A stretch of DNA of 64,000 bases, taken from assembly GCA_902570695.1 (NCBI GenBank), contig CACFZE010000007.1:11912-75911 (forward strand), written 5' to 3'. The notes beneath the pieces were generated by a model. It was given only the letters and a program-made list of their open reading frames with translations, made no database searches and was not told where the DNA came from. The position numbers and the translations under genes were made by a program. Source of the stretch: an uncultured Pelagibacteraceae bacterium (GTDB lineage: Bacteria > Pseudomonadota > Alphaproteobacteria > Pelagibacterales > Pelagibacteraceae). This document shows positions 4,584 to 63,642 of this stretch, piece by piece (within the stretch, counting starts at the first letter, position 1; every line of letters begins with the position of its first letter).

Positions 4584-4655
4584 AATTCAAATAAAGCATA
4601 AATTTTGCGACTAATTTAATATTGATGAGTTTCATTGTTTCTGCTTTACTTAGAA

Positions 4656-4693
4656 AATTCAAAAATAAATTTGAATTATTTGTTAACAAATAA
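4656..4693. promoter_or_regulatory. Two adjacent inverted repeats upstream of aapJ (candidate operators)
   Basis: AATTCAAA-N6-TTTGAATT (4656-4677) and perfect 18-bp palindrome TTATTTGTTAACAAATAA (4676-4693). Confidence 0.35.
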
Positions 4694-4713
4694 ATAAACA
4701 AGAGGAATAAATA

Positions 4714-5754
4714 ATGTTTAAATTAGTAAAACGATTGACTTCAGTTGTTGCTATGTTTGCTGTTCTATTTACTTTTACAACAGAAACTATGGCTGCAAAA
4801 AAGTCAAAAACTCTTAAAAACACTCAGAAAAAAGGATTTGTGAGATGTGGTGTTTCACAAGGTCTACCAGGATTTTCTAATGCTGATGCTGCAGGAAACT
4901 GGACTGGTGTTGACGTTGATGTATGTAGAGCAGTAGCTGCTGCAGTACTAGGTGATGCAAGTAAAGTTAAATTTACTCCACTAAGTGCAAAAGAAAGATT
5001 TGAAGCTTTGAAATCTAATGAAATAGATGTGTTATCAAGAAACACAACTTGGACAGCTACTAGAGATGCAAAAATTGGACTTACGTTTGTAGGTGTTAAT
5101 TTTTATGACGGTCAAGGTTTTATGGTTAGAAAAAATTCAGGAATTTCATCAGTAAATGATTTCAAAGCTGGTGTTTCTGCATGTACTAACCTTGGAACAA
5201 CGACAGAGCTTAATATGAGAGATTTCTTTAACTCAAAAGGAATTAAATATGAGCCAGTCACTTTTGAAAAAGCTGACGAAGTTGTAGCTGCATACGATGC
5301 TGGTAGATGTGATACTTATACTACAGATAAATCTGGATTAGCTGCACAAAGAATAAAACTAAGTAATCCTGATGATCATGTTGTATTACCTGAAACTATT
5401 TCAAAAGAGCCATTAGGCCCAGTTGTTAGACAAGGTGATGCTGTTTGGGAAGATATCGTGAGATGGTCCTTAAACGTGATGATTGAAGCTGAAGAGTATG
5501 GAGTAACATCTGCAAATGCTGATATGATGAAAACTTCTGATAACCCAGCAGTTAAAAGATTAGTAGGTGCTGAAGGTGAGTTAGGAGCTGCCTTAGGTTT
5601 AGATCAAGAATGGAGTCTAAGAATAATTAAGCAAGTTGGTAACTACGGTGAAAGCTATAAAAGAAATATAGCTGATACTGGAATTCTACCTGATAGAGGT
5701 CCAAATGAGTTATGGACAAAAGGCGGAATACTTTACGTACCACCAGCAAGATAA
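4714..5754 (+). CDS. aapJ: General L-amino-acid ABC transporter substrate-binding protein (AapJ/BztA/YhdW)
   Basis: Signal peptide; CGVSQGLPGFS, DVDVCRAVAAA, ISKEPLGP motifs; RBS AGAGGA. Confidence 0.92.
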   Translation: MFKLVKRLTSVVAMFAVLFTFTTETMAAKKSKTLKNTQKKGFVRCGVSQGLPGFSNADAAGNWTGVDVDVCRAVAAAVLGDASKVKFTPLSAKERFEALKSNEIDVLSRNTTWTATRDAKIGLTFVGVNFYDGQGFMVRKNSGISSVNDFKAGVSACTNLGTTTELNMRDFFNSKGIKYEPVTFEKADEVVAAYDAGRCDTYTTDKSGLAAQRIKLSNPDDHVVLPETISKEPLGPVVRQGDAVWEDIVRWSLNVMIEAEEYGVTSANADMMKTSDNPAVKRLVGAEGELGAALGLDQEWSLRIIKQVGNYGESYKRNIADTGILPDRGPNELWTKGGILYVPPAR

Positions 5755-9143: not shown

Positions 9144-9288
9144 AAATTATAACTAAATTGCTAAAAAGACGCTTGACAGGTTTATAAAATCTTAAAAATT
9201 ATTATTCTTTTTAAAATTATTTTACTTGAAATAACTTTTTGATTTCTATTAACTCAACTTATTATTTTTAATTAAAGAGGGGTCTTTG

Positions 9289-9660
9289 ATGGAAGAAAAT
9301 TTCAATAAACATCTAGGTAACAAATTAAAACTTAGACGTTTGGCTTTAGGTTTAACTCAAACTAAAGTTGCAAAAGCGATAAATGTTACATTTCAACAAA
9401 TACAAAAATATGAAAAAGGAACAAATGGTGTAAGTTCGATTAGATTACTACAACTATCTAACTATCTTAAAGTGCCAATAAACTATTTTTTTGAGGATTT
9501 TTCAGAATATTTAATAAATCTAGAAAAATCTAAAGAAGGTCACATGAACGTAAACTATAATTTTTTAGTAAAAGTTTATTCTGAACTTACTCAAGATCAA
9601 AAAATTAAGTTTACTAAAAACATACAGATCAACCAGGTAAATATTTCTAAAACAGGATAA
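9289..9660 (+). CDS. XRE-family helix-turn-helix transcriptional regulator
   Basis: RRLALGLTQTKVAKAINVTFQQIQKYEKGTN is an HTH_3-type motif; RBS GAGGGG 6 nt before ATG 9289. Confidence 0.85.
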   Translation: MEENFNKHLGNKLKLRRLALGLTQTKVAKAINVTFQQIQKYEKGTNGVSSIRLLQLSNYLKVPINYFFEDFSEYLINLEKSKEGHMNVNYNFLVKVYSELTQDQKIKFTKNIQINQVNISKTG

Positions 9661-15545: not shown

Positions 15546-16385
15546 ATGGATACGTTAGTATTTTCTGTCGTTTTATTGGCAGCACTACTTCATGCCACTT
15601 GGAATGACATGGTCAAAAAACACTCGGATAAAGCAGTTGCTCTAGCAGGTATAATTTTAGGTCATATACCTTTTTCAATTGTTGCAATCATCTTGTTACC
15701 CGCACCCTCAATAGAAAGTATACCTTATATCTTCGCAAGTATTGTTGTTCATATAGGTTATCAATGGTTTTTGCTTAAATCATATGAAATAGGAGATTTG
15801 ACAAAAGTCTATCCTATAGCAAGAGGAACGGGGCCTTTATTTGTAACTGTAATTTCGATTTTATTGTTAGGAGTAGTGTTAAATAAATTTATACTGATCT
15901 CTATTTTTTTAATATGTTTTGGAATTTTTTTTCTTGGTATTTCTGATTATAAAAACAGTAACTTAAATGTAATTAAATTTTCTTTTATTACAGGTTTGTT
16001 TATTGGATCATACTCACTTGTAGATGGATATGGAGCAAGAATAAGTAATTCTGCAATATCTTTTGTCAGCTGGTCTTTCATATTAAACGCTATGATTTTC
16101 CCATTTATTCTAAGTTTAAGAGGTCAACAGGATATTATTAAAAAGGTTTATAGAGACGGTAAAATGATATTTTTTTACGGTGTAACATTATCATATGCTA
16201 GTTATGCCTTGGCTGTATGGGCATTTACAAAAGCTCCAATACCTGTTGTTACATCCTTAAGAGAAACAAGTATTTTATTATCGATATTTATTGGATATTT
16301 TTTATTAAAAGAAAGTATCAATTTAAAAAAAATCATATCAATTTTATTTATTTTAATAGGTGTGATTGGGATTAAATTATTTTAA
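15546..16385 (+). CDS. DMT/EamA-family transporter
   Basis: About 10 hydrophobic segments; LLHATWN, GDLTKVYPIARG, LRETS motifs. Confidence 0.8.
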   Translation: MDTLVFSVVLLAALLHATWNDMVKKHSDKAVALAGIILGHIPFSIVAIILLPAPSIESIPYIFASIVVHIGYQWFLLKSYEIGDLTKVYPIARGTGPLFVTVISILLLGVVLNKFILISIFLICFGIFFLGISDYKNSNLNVIKFSFITGLFIGSYSLVDGYGARISNSAISFVSWSFILNAMIFPFILSLRGQQDIIKKVYRDGKMIFFYGVTLSYASYALAVWAFTKAPIPVVTSLRETSILLSIFIGYFLLKESINLKKIISILFILIGVIGIKLF

Positions 16386-16419
16386 TTAAATTGTAACAAT
16401 CTATAAATATTTTTGTCAT
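16380..16419 (+). promoter_or_regulatory. Pho-box-like array (11-bp period) at the start of a gene-less intergenic region
   Basis: Half-sites TTTTAAT (16380), TTGTAAC (16391), TATAAAT (16402, poor), TTGTCAT (16413). Confidence 0.55.
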
Positions 16420-16435
16420 TAAAGTTTATTAAAAA

Positions 16436-16546
16436 TAATTAACAAAAATTTTAAATAATAAAACATCTTCATTTCCTCTTTGTTTAAAATTTTGTTGATT
16501 AACTACCTTCCCCTTTTTGTTATAAAAAAGGGGAGGGACAATTTTT
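16436..16546 (+). ncRNA. Candidate PhoB-induced small RNA (stem-loop with anti-RBS loop plus terminator)
   Basis: About 20-bp stem 16436-16458/16480-16501, loop containing AAACATCTTCATTTCCTCT, then GC-rich hairpin 16506-16537 and T5; G-U pairs favour the + strand. Confidence 0.45.
16506..16546 (+). terminator. Terminator-like hairpin
   Basis: CCTTCCCCTTTTT-GTTATA-AAAAAGGGGAGGG (13 bp with one U-G), then ACAA and TTTTT. Confidence 0.65.
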
Positions 16547-16551
16547 ATACA

Positions 16552-16764
16552 TTAATTATTTACAGACGCAGGACTCTCACTGGTTTTCTTTTTAGCTAAT
16601 TTTTTTGCTTTTTTTTCGGCAACTTTTTTTTCAATACCTGCAATTTTTATATTAATTTTAGCTAGTTTTTTTTCCTTTAAATTAATCTTATTTTTAAGTT
16701 TATCTATTGATTTGATAAACTTTTTTTTTCTTCTTTCATTTTTCTTTAACATCTTACCCATCAT
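16552..16764 (-). CDS. Small lysine-rich basic protein, unknown function
   Basis: Perfect AGGAGG RBS (16767-16772), likely start 16761; 24 Lys + 2 Arg in 70 aa; coiled-coil-like. Confidence 0.7.
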   Translation of the reverse strand: MMGKMLKKNERRKKKFIKSIDKLKNKINLKEKKLAKINIKIAGIEKKVAEKKAKKLAKKKTSESPASVNN

Positions 16765-20924: not shown

Positions 20925-21533
20925 ATGATTAAGATATTACATAGTATTTTAATTATTATTTTTTTTTTAATGTCGATCATTACTAAAAGTAATGCATCAG
21001 ATATTTCTACAATTTTAAGAAACCAGCAATTAACTGTTTTTGATATTGGTATCTTTAGATTACAGGAAGACTTAAAAAGTTCATATCCTGAAATAAAAAA
21101 ACATAAAGATGTACCGTATGAAGATATATATATAGATGTTCTCAGTTCCTATTGGAGAAATACAGTAGATTTAATTGTTTCAATTCCAGTAAATGAAAAT
21201 TTAAAAAAAGAGAACTACATGTCAGATTCATTGAGATGTCGAAACATATTTAATTCTGTTAGAGATCATTTACTGAGAAATGAAAATATGAGTAATTATA
21301 GGTTTACTATGGCGACAAGCTATTTAACATCTATTTTTTCTACTCCTACTAGTTGGCCAAAATGGCGTTATGACCAAAGTATTCTTGAGGAATTAGTTAA
21401 TTTGGTAAAACTGGAAGTTGTCTTAAGACCAACCCCAGATCTTGCTTTTAAGGATAACGTAAATCCAGTTTCATGCAAAGGTGGTCTAGAAACTGAAAAT
21501 AGTGAGATTATTGTCTCAATGAAATACAACTAA
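20925..21533 (+). CDS. Hypothetical exported protein
   Basis: Signal-peptide-like N-terminus ending SNA-S; 202 aa; two Cys; no motif recognised. Confidence 0.7.
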   Translation: MIKILHSILIIIFFLMSIITKSNASDISTILRNQQLTVFDIGIFRLQEDLKSSYPEIKKHKDVPYEDIYIDVLSSYWRNTVDLIVSIPVNENLKKENYMSDSLRCRNIFNSVRDHLLRNENMSNYRFTMATSYLTSIFSTPTSWPKWRYDQSILEELVNLVKLEVVLRPTPDLAFKDNVNPVSCKGGLETENSEIIVSMKYN

Positions 21534-31779: not shown

Positions 31780-31830
31780 CTTTAATATATTTTTAATTTT
31801 ATTGAAACATATCTTTAATCCAAATGTAAT
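31780..31830 (+). promoter_or_regulatory. Five-unit Pho-box-like array with no plus-strand gene downstream
   Basis: CTTTAAT (31780), TTTTAAT (31791), TTGAAAC (31802), CTTTAAT (31813), ATGTAAT (31824), exact 11-bp period. Confidence 0.6.
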
Positions 31831-31866
31831 ATTCTTCTGTGATTAAATTGTAAACATTAAACCCCT

Positions 31867-42822: not shown

Positions 42823-43079
42823 TGCTAAAAGAGCTTAAATATCTATTTTATTTAATAATTATATTTTTCTTTCTATTTTTTACTCTAAGATATTATTTTT
42901 CAGACGATAATTACAAGAAATCATATAGAGCAGTTTCAAGTATTGATGAAAAGATATCATCTAACGAAAATAATCTATTTATTCTTAAAAATGACACGGA
43001 CAACATTATTGAATATGTAGAATACAAAAATAAAAACACAAAAAAATATTCTTTTTGGGAATTGTTATATAATGATTAA
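42822..43079 (+). CDS. Hypothetical bitopic membrane protein (85 aa)
   Basis: One N-terminal TM; translationally coupled to argS and nagZ. Confidence 0.65.
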   Translation: MLKELKYLFYLIIIFFFLFFTLRYYFSDDNYKKSYRAVSSIDEKISSNENNLFILKNDTDNIIEYVEYKNKNTKKYSFWELLYND

Positions 43080-45456: not shown

Positions 45457-45498
45457 AAAAATAGTTTTAAAACTAAAATTATAAGGTTATAAGTAATT

Positions 45499-45696
45499 AT
45501 GAGTATAGGATTTTGGCAAATTGCAATTGTAGTAATTTTAGTAGTATTACTTTTTGGCAGAGGTAAAATCTCTAGTTTAATGGGTGATGTTGCTAAAGGA
45601 ATTAAAAGTTTTAAAAAGGGTATGGCTACAGATGCTACAGAAGATAGCCAACCAAAAAATATATCTGAAAATCAAGACTCAGACAAAAAAGAGTAA
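45499..45696 (+). CDS. tatA: Twin-arginine translocase TatA
   Basis: LLFGRGK...GIKSFKKG. Confidence 0.92.
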
Positions 45697-45699
45697 TCA

Positions 45700-45936
45700 A
45701 TGCCACAGATCGGCTGGTTTGAAATATTAATAATAGTATTTATTGCAATAATAGTTGTAGGACCAAAAGACTTTCCTGTAATGTTAAAAAAAGTTGGATC
45801 ATGGATAGGTTCTGCTAAGAGATATTTTTCAGATGTTCAAAATCAAGTTACAGAAATAACGGATGTTTCAATTAAAGAAGAATTAAAAAAAAACACTGAA
45901 ATTATGAAAGAGGACAAGCCTAAAGATGACAGCTAA
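45700..45936 (+). CDS. tatB: Twin-arginine translocase TatB (short)
   Basis: GWFEILII...VGPKDFP. Confidence 0.85.
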   Translation: MPQIGWFEILIIVFIAIIVVGPKDFPVMLKKVGSWIGSAKRYFSDVQNQVTEITDVSIKEELKKNTEIMKEDKPKDDS

Positions 45937-63265: not shown

Positions 63266-63291
63266 GATTTATATATATAAAGATTTAATTA

Positions 63292-63552
63292 ATGGATTCA
63301 AATAAACAAAATTTAATTAATAAAATTTTATACAGAGCTCAATACCGTGGAACTAAAGAAATGGATATTTTTGTTTCTAAATTTGTTAATTCAATTATTG
63401 ACAATCTCGATCATAAAGAATTAGTTTCTTTAGATAAGTTAATTAATTTTGATGACGAAACTTTAGTCGATTTAAGTTTAGGTAAAAATTCAAAAGATTT
63501 TGAAGATAAAATCGTCTTAAAAAAACTTATAGAATTTAAAAATAAATATTAG
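63292..63552 (+). CDS. sdhE: FAD assembly factor SdhE
   Basis: YRGTKEMD (RGxxExD) motif, 86 aa. Confidence 0.85.
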   Translation: MDSNKQNLINKILYRAQYRGTKEMDIFVSKFVNSIIDNLDHKELVSLDKLINFDDETLVDLSLGKNSKDFEDKIVLKKLIEFKNKY

Positions 63553-63642
63553 TGGCGGAGAGACTGGGATTCGAACCCAGGAAAGAGTTGCCCCTTTGCC
63601 GGTTTTCAAGACCGGTGCTTTCAACCGCTCAGCCATCTCTCC
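63553..63642 (-). tRNA. tRNA-Ser (TGA)
   Basis: GGAGAGA acceptor, CCGGT-CTTGAAA-ACCGG, long variable arm, encoded CCA. Confidence 0.97.

What the first reader, a model, noticed from the sequence alone, without database searches (positions are those of the whole stretch)
16380..16546. Candidate PhoB-induced small RNA whose loop is complementary to the aapJ RBS and start codon
Seen in sequence: the 166-bp gap between the EamA gene and the K-rich gene is unusually long for this genome and has a full sRNA layout on the + strand. (i) An 11-bp-periodic Pho-like array (TTTTAAT 16380, TTGTAAC 16391, TTGTCAT 16413). (ii) A stem of about 20 bp (16436-16458 with 16480-16501, one bulge, U-G pairs that would be A-C mismatches on the minus strand). 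(iii) A loop carrying AAACAT-CTTCAT-TTCCTCT. (iv) A GC-rich 13-bp hairpin plus T5. Segment 16461-16486 pairs in register with the aapJ leader: TAAACA 4695-4700, AGAGGAA 4701-4707 and ATGTTT 4714-4719 (6+7+6 bp, one bulge, one 6-nt mostly unpaired internal loop). Established: alphaproteobacterial AbcR sRNAs use anti-SD loops to repress ABC binding-protein mRNAs. Inference: a phosphate-starvation sRNA that shuts down amino-acid uptake, i.e. P-to-N/C cross-talk. I know of no description of it but could not search.
Basis: partly seen in the sequence, partly recalled or inferred. Interest (0 to 1): 0.82.

Follow-up and report, generated by a model that had tools for sequence, protein, structure and literature searches.

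The report
Candidate phosphate-starvation small RNA in SAR11
A 166-base gap between two convergent genes of a SAR11 (Pelagibacter) genome most likely encodes a roughly 100-nucleotide regulatory RNA with a phosphate-starvation (PhoB-type) promoter and a ribosome-site-mimicking loop, whose best predicted target is the mRNA of the cell's main amino-acid uptake protein; the layout is well supported by comparison of genomes, but expression and target remain untested.

Summary
The element does not belong to EamA. It travels with the convergent 69-70 aa Lys-rich gene and sits beside three different upstream genes (EamA, manC, ppx) in about 13 sequence types.

- **Conserved layout:** four phased Pho-like boxes, 10 variable nt, TAnnnn, 6-9 variable nt, an AU-rich hairpin whose loop ends in UUCCYCU, an invariant linker UUUUGUURAUUAAC, and a covarying GC hairpin.
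- **Pho boxes:** the motif also stands upstream of pstS, plcP, DAGK and the arsC operon (12 hits versus 1.1 expected).
- **Strand:** the helices hold 36 G·U pairs but 1 A·C mismatch on the + strand, so the + strand RNA is under selection.
- **Known families:** Rfam has no match and no description was found.
- **Target:** aapJ/yhdW ranks first of 60 start regions for the window's RNA and for most variants. For the two other genomes with a known cognate leader it is not separated from background, and equally good sites occur about 7 times per 128 kb.
- **Expression:** metatranscriptome contigs cover the gap without strand information and could be read-through.

Verdict: a credible new sRNA family. 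Pho control is plausible. The aapJ target is a good but unproven lead.

The parts
16380..16419 (+). Array of four 7-bp direct repeats at 11-bp phase (TTTTAAT-TAAA-TTGTAAC-AATC-TATAAAT-ATTT-TTGTCAT). Read as a Pho-box-like PhoB site.
   Evidence: Exact match to YTKTMAY-N4-YTKTMAY (12 hits versus 1.14 expected). Four-box pattern: 2 hits versus 0.14. The same motif stands upstream of pstS, plcP, DAGK and the arsC operon. Conserved in all element types.
16430..16435 (+). -10-like hexamer TAAAAA, 10 nt after the last box (inferred).
   Evidence: In 13 of 14 variants the hexamer at this fixed distance starts with TA, while the 10 nt before it and the 6-9 nt after it vary freely.
16443..16546 (+). 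Predicted sRNA of about 100 nt. Both ends are inferred, not mapped.
   Evidence: The start is placed 24-25 nt after the last box, as for PhoB promoters (PMC3616915), at the first base of the conserved stem. Folds at -28.6 kcal/mol, z -5.1. The nhmmer profile of the family hits 16442-16541 only.
16445..16493 (+). Hairpin 1: 14-bp AU-rich stem (16445-16458 with 16480-16493) and a 21-nt loop (16459-16479).
   Evidence: A stem is present in all types. One compensatory U-A to C-G change (L001). Eight or more independent one-sided changes all give G·U on the + strand.
16472..16479 (+). CU-rich anti-Shine-Dalgarno motif UUUCCUCU at the 3' end of the loop.
   Evidence: Every type ends its loop in UUCCUCU, UUCCCCU or CUUCCCUC. 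It is single-stranded in the fold.
16494..16505 (+). Single-stranded linker GUUGAUUAACUA. It is part of UUUUGUURAUUAACUAC, the best conserved sequence of the element.
   Evidence: Nearly invariant over all types. Complementary to the GUUAACAAA palindrome of the aapJ leader.
16506..16545 (+). GC-rich 13-bp terminator hairpin (16506-16537) plus T5 (16541-16545).
   Evidence: Seven of 13 stem positions show CG<->UA double changes across types, and all wobble pairs are U·G on the + strand. The U run is weak in most other types.
16436..16443 (+). Probably upstream of the start and not part of the RNA.
   Evidence: Pairs in the window, but the pairing is not conserved in types B-M.
16552..16764 (-). 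Convergent 70-aa Lys-rich ORF, the constant partner of the element.
   Evidence: All 18 metagenome matches and all genome loci with the element abut its stop codon. SAR11-only family with no Pfam match. The most common variant (P0064) lacks the element.
4681..4732 (+). Predicted target site in the aapJ/yhdW leader and start region (-33..+18; SD AGAGGAA 4701-4707, ATG 4714).
   Evidence: Duplex of -26.0 kcal/mol, rank 1 of 60. The leader lies within the mRNA: RNA contigs run from 4653 or earlier at depth about 400-550.

Best explanation
The gap holds an independent gene for a + strand small RNA of about 100 nt.

**Proposed mechanism**
1. Under phosphate starvation, PhoB~P binds the four phased boxes at 16380-16419. 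This array takes the place of a -35 element.
2. Transcription starts near 16443/16444 and ends at the GC hairpin (16506-16537).
3. The RNA folds into an AU-rich hairpin that displays a CU-rich anti-Shine-Dalgarno loop, followed by a conserved single-stranded linker.
4. The loop contacts the ribosome-binding site of target mRNAs. Pairing can then spread along the weak AU stem and the linker, blocking translation initiation.
5. The best candidate target in this window is aapJ/yhdW, the binding protein of the general amino-acid ABC transporter. The RNA can pair with it imperfectly from -33 to +18.

**What is shown and what is inferred**
- Shown: the structure, its conservation, the strand bias, the motif enrichment, and the linkage to the Lys-rich gene.
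- Inferred: the promoter and start site, PhoB dependence, the 3' end, and the target.
For: **Conserved module**
- The element is conserved in about 13 sequence types and always abuts the Lys-rich gene.
- The upstream gene varies: EamA, manC or ppx.

**Promoter footprint**
- The order is four boxes, 10 variable nt, TAnnnn, 6-9 variable nt, then the conserved stem.
- The spacing matches PhoB promoters, whose box lies 22-25 nt upstream of the start (PMC3616915).

**Pho motif**
- 12 hits against 1.14 expected, mostly at promoters of Pho-type genes of the same window.
- phoU and phoB are in the window.

**Strand**
- 36 G·U against 1 A·C in the two helices over 22 variants.
- All terminator wobbles are U·G on the + strand, and 7 of 13 stem positions covary.
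- The + strand fold has z -5 to -6, the minus strand z -2.5.

**Single copy**
- A family profile hits the window once. It does not hit genomes that lack the module.

**Target**
- aapJ ranks 1 of 60, at -11.6 after opening costs against -6.4 for the next.
- It ranks first for 11 of 16 variants, with 0 of 300 shuffles as good for most types.
- The cognate leader is best in a 3x3 test.
- The aapJ 5'UTR is long and covers the site.
- YhdW protein changes without an mRNA change in HTCC1062 (PMC3870248).
Against: - **No strand-resolved RNA data.** Metatranscriptome contigs of 151-268 nt tile 16319-16705. They start upstream of the predicted start site and cross the terminator, at depth 2-6 (57 in one oligo-dT run).
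- **Read-through could explain the coverage.** The highly expressed Lys-rich gene may simply read through. aapJ mRNA in the same runs is in the thousands.
- **The U run after the terminator is short or displaced in most types**.
- **The stem is almost all A-U,** so true compensatory changes in hairpin 1 are few.
- **Target evidence is limited.**
  - Duplexes of -26 or better occur at about 7 loci per 128 kb.
  - For types B and F, with their own leaders, aapJ is rank 1 by 0.3 kcal and rank 2.
  - UUCCCCU loops mismatch the conserved AGAGGAA.
  - The aapJ leader is equally conserved in a genome without the element (L148).
  - Only 4-5% of a genome was available for ranking.
- **Hfq was not seen in the window.**
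Confidence: 0.55

Rival explanations
1. The two hairpins are only termination and stability structures shared by the convergent genes, that is a bidirectional terminator with a 3'UTR. The CU-rich loop, the boxes and the aapJ match would then be incidental.
For: - The element lies between convergent genes.
- RNA contigs run through the region and join the Lys-rich coding sequence.
- The second hairpin scores as a terminator.
- AT-rich DNA readily yields -10-like and box-like strings: the promoter scan found 12 sites against 19 expected.
Against: - The most common Lys-rich gene variant ends 3 nt from ppx with no hairpin at all.
- Loop and linker SEQUENCES, and 40 nt of upstream boxes, are conserved beside three unrelated upstream genes.
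- The box motif is tenfold enriched and otherwise marks Pho-type promoters.
- A terminator does not need a second AU hairpin with a 21-nt conserved loop.
Confidence: 0.2
2. The functional RNA is the minus strand, a long 3'UTR of the Lys-rich mRNA or an RNA cut from it. Its hairpin loop (AGAGGAAAUGAAGAUG) mimics the aapJ ribosome-binding region and would titrate a factor that binds that leader.
For: - The element always follows the Lys-rich gene.
- The minus strand resembles the aapJ leader over about 50 nt.
- RNA coverage is compatible with read-through from a very highly expressed gene.
Against: - The 36:1 G·U to A·C bias means the helices would carry C·A mismatches on the minus strand.
- The minus-strand fold is weak.
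- The boxes have the orientation of a + strand promoter.
- A family profile does not detect aapJ leaders.
Confidence: 0.12
3. The element is a real + strand sRNA under Pho control, but aapJ is not its target. The true targets lie elsewhere in the genome, or it acts on the overlapping 3' end of the Lys-rich mRNA.
For: - The anti-SD loop is generic.
- Loop variants (UCCUCU, UCCCCU, CUUCCCUC) do not track the invariant aapJ AGAGGAA.
- Signal is weak for types B, F and I.
- Only 60 start regions could be ranked.
- The RNA and the Lys-rich mRNA share the terminator hairpin in antisense.
Against: - aapJ is first for most variants and far beyond shuffled controls.
- The invariant linker matches the invariant GUUAACAAA of the leader.
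Confidence: 0.3

Closest known systems
AbcR1/AbcR2 of Agrobacterium, Sinorhizobium and Brucella (PMC4152367, PMC3712013)
   Same: These are alphaproteobacterial trans-acting sRNAs of about 100 nt. They carry single-stranded anti-SD motifs and repress mRNAs of ABC-transporter binding proteins, including amino-acid uptake systems.
   Different: - No sequence or structure homology: no Rfam hit at gathering or E<=10.
- One anti-SD loop rather than two modules.
- A Pho-type promoter instead of AbcR control.
- Much longer predicted duplex.
- Hfq dependence unknown.
MicF-ompF of enterobacteria (from my own knowledge)
   Same: An sRNA encoded away from its target that forms a long imperfect duplex over the Shine-Dalgarno sequence and start codon. 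MicF has been discussed as a possible diverged antisense copy of the target's 5' end.
   Different: - Different organism, regulator and target class.
- The SAR11 similarity to the aapJ leader is too weak for a profile search to detect.
GcvB of enterobacteria (PMC4474525)
   Same: A global repressor of amino-acid and peptide ABC-transporter binding-protein mRNAs that acts at the translation initiation region.
   Different: - GcvB uses a G/U-rich seed against C/A-rich enhancers, not an anti-SD loop.
- It is controlled by glycine, not phosphate.
- It is unrelated in sequence.
PhoS of Bacillus (PMC11522486) and other Pho-regulon sRNAs
   Same: An sRNA induced by phosphate scarcity through the Pho two-component regulator.
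   Different: - PhoS derives from the 3'UTR of phoPR and acts on other targets.
- The SAR11 element appears to have its own promoter and lies next to a Lys-rich gene.
Cuckoo/CcsR RNAs of Rhodobacter and relatives (from my own knowledge)
   Same: Hairpin loops with C/U-rich anti-SD motifs, genetically linked to a small protein gene.
   Different: - CcsR RNAs carry CCUCCUCCC, come in tandem repeats, and are co-transcribed downstream of a DUF1127 gene.
- Here there is one hairpin, a different motif, convergent orientation, and no Rfam hit.

Membership tests
AbcR sRNA family | Sequence and secondary-structure homology to the curated covariance model | tested here: not met
   cmscan of the window at gathering thresholds found only tRNAs. 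At E<=10 on 16300-16650 it found only chance hits far below the thresholds.
AbcR sRNA family | Single-stranded anti-SD motif(s) | tested here: met
   UUUCCUCU sits in the 21-nt loop. A CU-rich motif is conserved in all types.
AbcR sRNA family | Represses mRNAs of ABC-transporter binding proteins | tested here: inconclusive
   In silico only: aapJ ranks 1 of 60 for type A and first for 11 of 16 variants. It is not separated from background for types B and F.
AbcR sRNA family | Hfq-dependent action | not testable with these tools
   No hfq gene was recognised among the ORFs examined in the window. The rest of the genome is not available.
PhoB-dependent promoter (Pho box) | Two or more 7-bp direct repeats at 11-bp phase resembling CTGTCAT | tested here: met
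   Four phased repeats at 16380-16419. The motif is enriched 12 against 1.14 and is shared with the pstS, plcP, DAGK and arsC-operon upstream regions.
PhoB-dependent promoter (Pho box) | The proximal repeat replaces the -35 element, about 10 bp from a -10 element and 22-25 nt from the start | tested here: inconclusive
   A conserved TAnnnn lies 10 nt after the last box, and the conserved stem starts 24-25 nt after it (PMC3616915). No start site has been mapped.
PhoB-dependent promoter (Pho box) | PhoB binding and induction under phosphate limitation | not testable with these tools
   No strand-resolved or condition-resolved reads could be obtained.
Intrinsic terminator | GC-rich hairpin directly followed by a U run | tested here: inconclusive
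   Met in the window (13 bp, then T5 after 3 nt). In most other types the U run is 2-3 nt and 4-5 nt away, although the hairpin covaries.
Small-ORF or type I toxin gene on the minus strand | A conserved reading frame with a start codon at a proper distance from the SD | tested here: not met
   The 17-codon frame of the window loses its ATG or ends after 8 codons in type B. It has no ATG in type C and is shifted by indels in L023 and L028.
Repeated intergenic element (REP/MITE-like) | Multiple copies per genome | tested here: not met
   One copy in the 64-kb window by pattern and by profile. Every copy elsewhere is next to the Lys-rich gene.

The most novel reading that the evidence does not exclude
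SAR11 carries a previously undescribed Pho-regulated sRNA. It travels with a Pho-regulated Lys-rich protein gene as a two-gene module among three phosphate loci (plcP/pst, arsC/ppx, manC). On phosphate starvation it throttles translation of YhdW/AapJ, one of the most abundant proteins of the surface ocean. This would give a streamlined genome with few transcription factors a direct P-to-N/C switch. The long antisense match would mean the RNA arose from, or has been moulded onto, the aapJ leader.
Probability: 0.25. Interest if true: 0.8.

Novelty: new member of a known kind. Interest (0 to 1): 0.65.

Why it matters
SAR11 is the most abundant heterotroph of the ocean. It has very few regulators, and its known RNA regulation is almost entirely riboswitches. 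I found no described trans-acting sRNA for it, and Rfam has none at this locus.

YhdW/AapJ dominates SAR11 metaproteomes. It is already known to change at the protein level without an mRNA change (PMC3870248).

A PhoB-driven sRNA acting on it would link phosphorus stress, which is chronic in the Sargasso and Mediterranean, to amino-acid uptake. It would also offer a concrete mechanism for post-transcriptional control in streamlined cells.

The hypothesis is directly testable, because a cultured strain (HIMB1715, locus L146) carries the element.

Tried and rejected
- **Minus-strand small ORF** (AGAGGAAATGAAGATG..., 17 codons). Not conserved.
- **Rfam.** No family match.
- **Viral contigs.** 24 pattern hits, all chance matches in coding DNA.
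- **Strand from metatranscriptomes.**
  - All runs are stored as contigs without direction.
  - Contig ends are biased by how the runs were picked.
  - The 'organism' runs X39-X42 look like DNA.
- **Hou et al. 2016 start-site map of HTCC7211.** The SAR11 table is not in the stored supplements.
- **MAFFT plus RNAalifold.** The 5' arm is misaligned between types, so the consensus recovered only part of the terminator. Pair counts were made by script instead.
- **The Lys-rich gene's own start region as a co-varying target.** Its SD (GGAGG, GGAAGG, GGGGG) does not track the loop variants.
- **Conserved loop core.** A search for its complement (GGAAAUAA and similar) at start regions of the window found nothing.
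- **Minus-strand promoter** ATGACA-18-TGnTACAAT. It is the reverse complement of the boxes, would give a different antisense product in each context, and is probably a by-product of the box sequence. It is not strictly excluded.
- **The linker palindrome as a shared operator with the aapJ palindrome.** The half-site spacing differs.
Full report
**1. What is in the sequence**

The window is SAR11 (Pelagibacteraceae). The nearest relatives of the local proteins are single-cell genomes of that family.

The 166-bp gap 16386-16551 lies between EamA (+, 15546-16385) and a 70-aa Lys-rich ORF on the other strand (16552-16764). The flanking genes therefore converge, and no promoter is expected here. 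It is the 4th longest of 65 gaps in the window, where the median gap is 4 bp.

- Boxes at 16380, 16391 and 16413.
- A 22-bp AU-rich stem, 16436-16458 with 16480-16501.
- The loop UAAAACAUCUUCAUUUCCUCU.
- A 13-bp GC hairpin at 16506-16537, followed by T5.

For 16425-16546 the + strand folds at -35.3 kcal/mol (z -6.2). The minus strand folds at -25.4 (z -2.5). Rfam 15 has no match at curated thresholds, and only chance hits at E<=10.

**2. Neighbourhood**

Downstream lie, in order:
- A DAGK-like gene (-).
- plcP and a glycosyltransferase.
- A histidine kinase.
- pstS, the pst genes, phoU and phoB.
- ppk and ppx.
- An arsC-MIP-NUDIX operon.

This is the phosphate island of the genome.

**3. The element belongs to the Lys-rich gene, not to EamA**

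Among 50 genome loci with an EamA relative, 37 carry the same gap almost unchanged. The other 13 have other neighbours.

Homologues of the Lys-rich protein are SAR11-specific. Their contigs show four arrangements:
- (a) EamA> [element] <K-rich <DAGK plcP> (the window).
- (b) manC> [element] <K-rich <DAGK plcP>.
- (c) ppx> [element] <K-rich <NUDIX <MIP <arsC.
- (d) ppx and K-rich stop codons 3 nt apart, with no element. This is the most common K-rich variant.

A pattern scan of metagenome contigs gave 18 true elements. Every one abuts the K-rich stop codon. A profile of the family hits the window once (16442-16541, +). It hits nothing in element-less genomes, aapJ loci or viral contigs.

**4. 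Anatomy conserved over about 13 sequence types**

In order along the + strand:
- Four 7-bp repeats at 11-bp phase: xxTTAAT-TAAA-YTKTAAY-AATM-WRTWAAW-AWTT-YTGWMAY.
- 10 variable nt.
- A hexamer that starts with TA in 13 of 14 variants.
- 6-9 variable nt.
- A stem (A/G)CAAAAUUU(U)AAAU... / ...UUUAAA(A)UUUUG.
- A loop of 15-30 nt that always ends in UUCCUCU, UUCCCCU or CUUCCCUC.
- The almost invariant UUUUGUURAUUAACUAC.
- A GC hairpin whose sequence differs between types.

This alternation of conserved and free blocks is what a promoter followed by a short structured transcript would leave. In S. meliloti, functional PhoB boxes lie 22-25 nt upstream of the start (PMC3616915). Here that places the start at 16443/16444, the first base of the conserved stem.

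The predicted RNA 16443-16546 folds into a 14-bp hairpin, a 12-nt linker and the terminator (-28.6 kcal/mol, z -5.1).

**5. Pho boxes**

YTKTMAY-N4-YTKTMAY occurs 12 times in the window against 1.14 +/- 1.07 in shuffles. The hits include:
- The element.
- The pstS upstream region (TTTTAAC-AAAA-CTGTAAT-AATT-CTGTAAT).
- Both strands of the plcP/DAGK divergent region.
- The arsC-operon upstream region.
- An array downstream of ppx that resembles the phoX promoter of other genomes.

The four-box array occurs twice against 0.14 expected. PhoB binding itself is an inference.

**6. Which strand**

Over 22 variants the two helices contain 36 G·U pairs on the + strand. They contain only one A·C mismatch, which is what a minus-strand G·U would look like.

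- Independent A-to-G polymorphisms in the 5' arm (L001, L027, L121, L059, and types H, I, M) all give G·U.
- The one U-to-C change is compensated by A-to-G (L001).
- In the terminator, 7 of 13 positions switch between C-G and U-A. All ten wobble pairs are U·G on the + strand.

This is the strongest evidence that a + strand RNA spanning both hairpins is under selection. The minus-strand small ORF (SD plus ATG in the loop) is not conserved and is rejected.

**7. Expression**

The gap is present in contigs of at least 14 metatranscriptomes. However:
- The contigs carry no direction.
- They are 151-268 nt long and tile 16319-16705.
- They start upstream of the predicted start site and cross the terminator into the Lys-rich gene.

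In one oligo-dT run the depths are 57 (gap), 300-1000 (Lys-rich gene), 127 (DAGK) and 0 (EamA body). EamA read-through is therefore excluded there. Read-through of the Lys-rich mRNA is not excluded. These data neither confirm nor refute the sRNA.

**8. Target**

*In favour*
It extends to a -26.0 kcal/mol duplex between sRNA nt 5-57 and aapJ -33..+18.
- With opening costs, aapJ scores -11.6 against -6.4 for the next of 60 start regions.
- For 16 sRNA variants tested against four aapJ leader variants, aapJ ranks first of 60 in 11 and second in 3.
- Against dinucleotide shuffles of the leader, most types reach z -4 to -6.7, with 0 of 300 shuffles as good.
- The pairing uses the CU-rich loop against AGAGGAA and the invariant linker against the invariant GUUAACAAA.
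- The aapJ leader is itself strongly conserved across SAR11. It lies inside the mRNA, since RNA contigs run from 4653 or earlier at depth about 400-550.
- In a 3x3 test with RNA and leader from the same contig (types A, B, F), each RNA pairs best with its own leader.

*Against*
- Windows scoring -25.7 or better occur at about 7 loci in 128 kb.
- The margins for B and F are under 2 kcal/mol. Within their own loci aapJ is rank 1 by 0.3 kcal and rank 2.
- UUCCCCU loops mismatch AGAGGAA.
- AAACAU is present only in types A, B and J.
- The leader is just as conserved in a genome without the element (L148).
- Only about 60 genes could be ranked.

I rate aapJ as a good lead at about 0.35-0.4, not a result.

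**9. Comparison with known systems**

- It works like AbcR1/2: an alphaproteobacterial sRNA with single-stranded anti-SD motifs that repress ABC binding-protein mRNAs (PMC4152367). It is not a member of that family (no Rfam hit).
- The long imperfect duplex over the SD and start codon recalls MicF-ompF (my own knowledge).
- Pho-regulated sRNAs exist, for example PhoS of Bacillus (PMC11522486). None was found for SAR11 or with this target class.
- YhdW protein rises 2.35-fold with mRNA at 1.19-fold under N limitation in HTCC1062 (PMC3870248). Translational control of this gene is therefore already suspected.

**10. Verdict**

- The sRNA reading is the best explanation (about 0.55).
- Pho control is plausible.
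- The aapJ target is unproven.

I class it as a new sRNA family of a known kind, with interest 0.65. It concerns the most abundant marine heterotroph and is testable in a cultured carrier (HIMB1715).

Noticed in passing
window 16552-16764 (-); loci L051-L078, L144, L146: The 69-70 aa Lys-rich, coiled-coil-like protein is SAR11-specific and has no Pfam match. It is always placed in phosphate-type neighbourhoods (DAGK-plcP-pst; arsC-MIP-NUDIX next to ppx-ppk; next to phoX). It is very deeply covered in one metatranscriptome. It is probably an uncharacterised Pho-regulon protein, and given its position next to ppk/ppx it may be polyphosphate-related.
   Followed up: partly
window 31780-31854 (+): A long phased array of Pho-like boxes lies downstream of ppx. 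It resembles the phoX upstream region of other SAR11 genomes (L052), but no phoX follows here. It may be a relic promoter or an unannotated transcript start just before the ppx/NUDIX terminator.
   Followed up: partly
loci L002, L005, L012-L014, L016, L020, L022, L025-L027, L030, L034, L036, L043: About 16 of 37 single-cell-genome contigs that carry this gap end inside or just after its hairpins, several in the loops. This is most likely assembly or amplification breakage at inverted repeats.
   Followed up: no
window 4653-4713: The aapJ/yhdW 5' leader is long and conserved across divergent SAR11. It contains an inverted repeat AATTCAAA-N4-6-TTTGAATT and a perfect palindrome ATTTGTTAACAAAT upstream of the SD. 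An HTH_3 regulator gene (9286-9660) follows the aap operon. This leader looks like a regulatory hub in its own right.
   Followed up: partly
window 15546-16385: The EamA transporter gene is absent in types B and F, where manC directly abuts the element. It looks like an insertion between manC and the sRNA/K-rich module.
   Followed up: partly
window 45457-45925, 63266-63555, 42823-43071: Three gaps longer than the one studied (469, 290 and 249 bp) in a genome whose median gap is 4 bp. Identical 18-mers TTTTAATTCTTCTTTAAT occur at 45871 (-) and 49587 (-). Not examined.
   Followed up: no
window 20925-21533 (+): A 202-aa ORF between the histidine kinase (phoR-like) and pstS has no Pfam match. 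It is conserved in position in L144.
   Followed up: no
window 16390-16419 (-): The reverse complement of the boxes reads as a sigma-70-like promoter (ATGACA-18 nt-TGnTACAAT) pointing into the 3' end of EamA. A similar reading is possible in other types. It is probably a by-product of the box sequence, but an antisense start is not excluded.
   Followed up: partly
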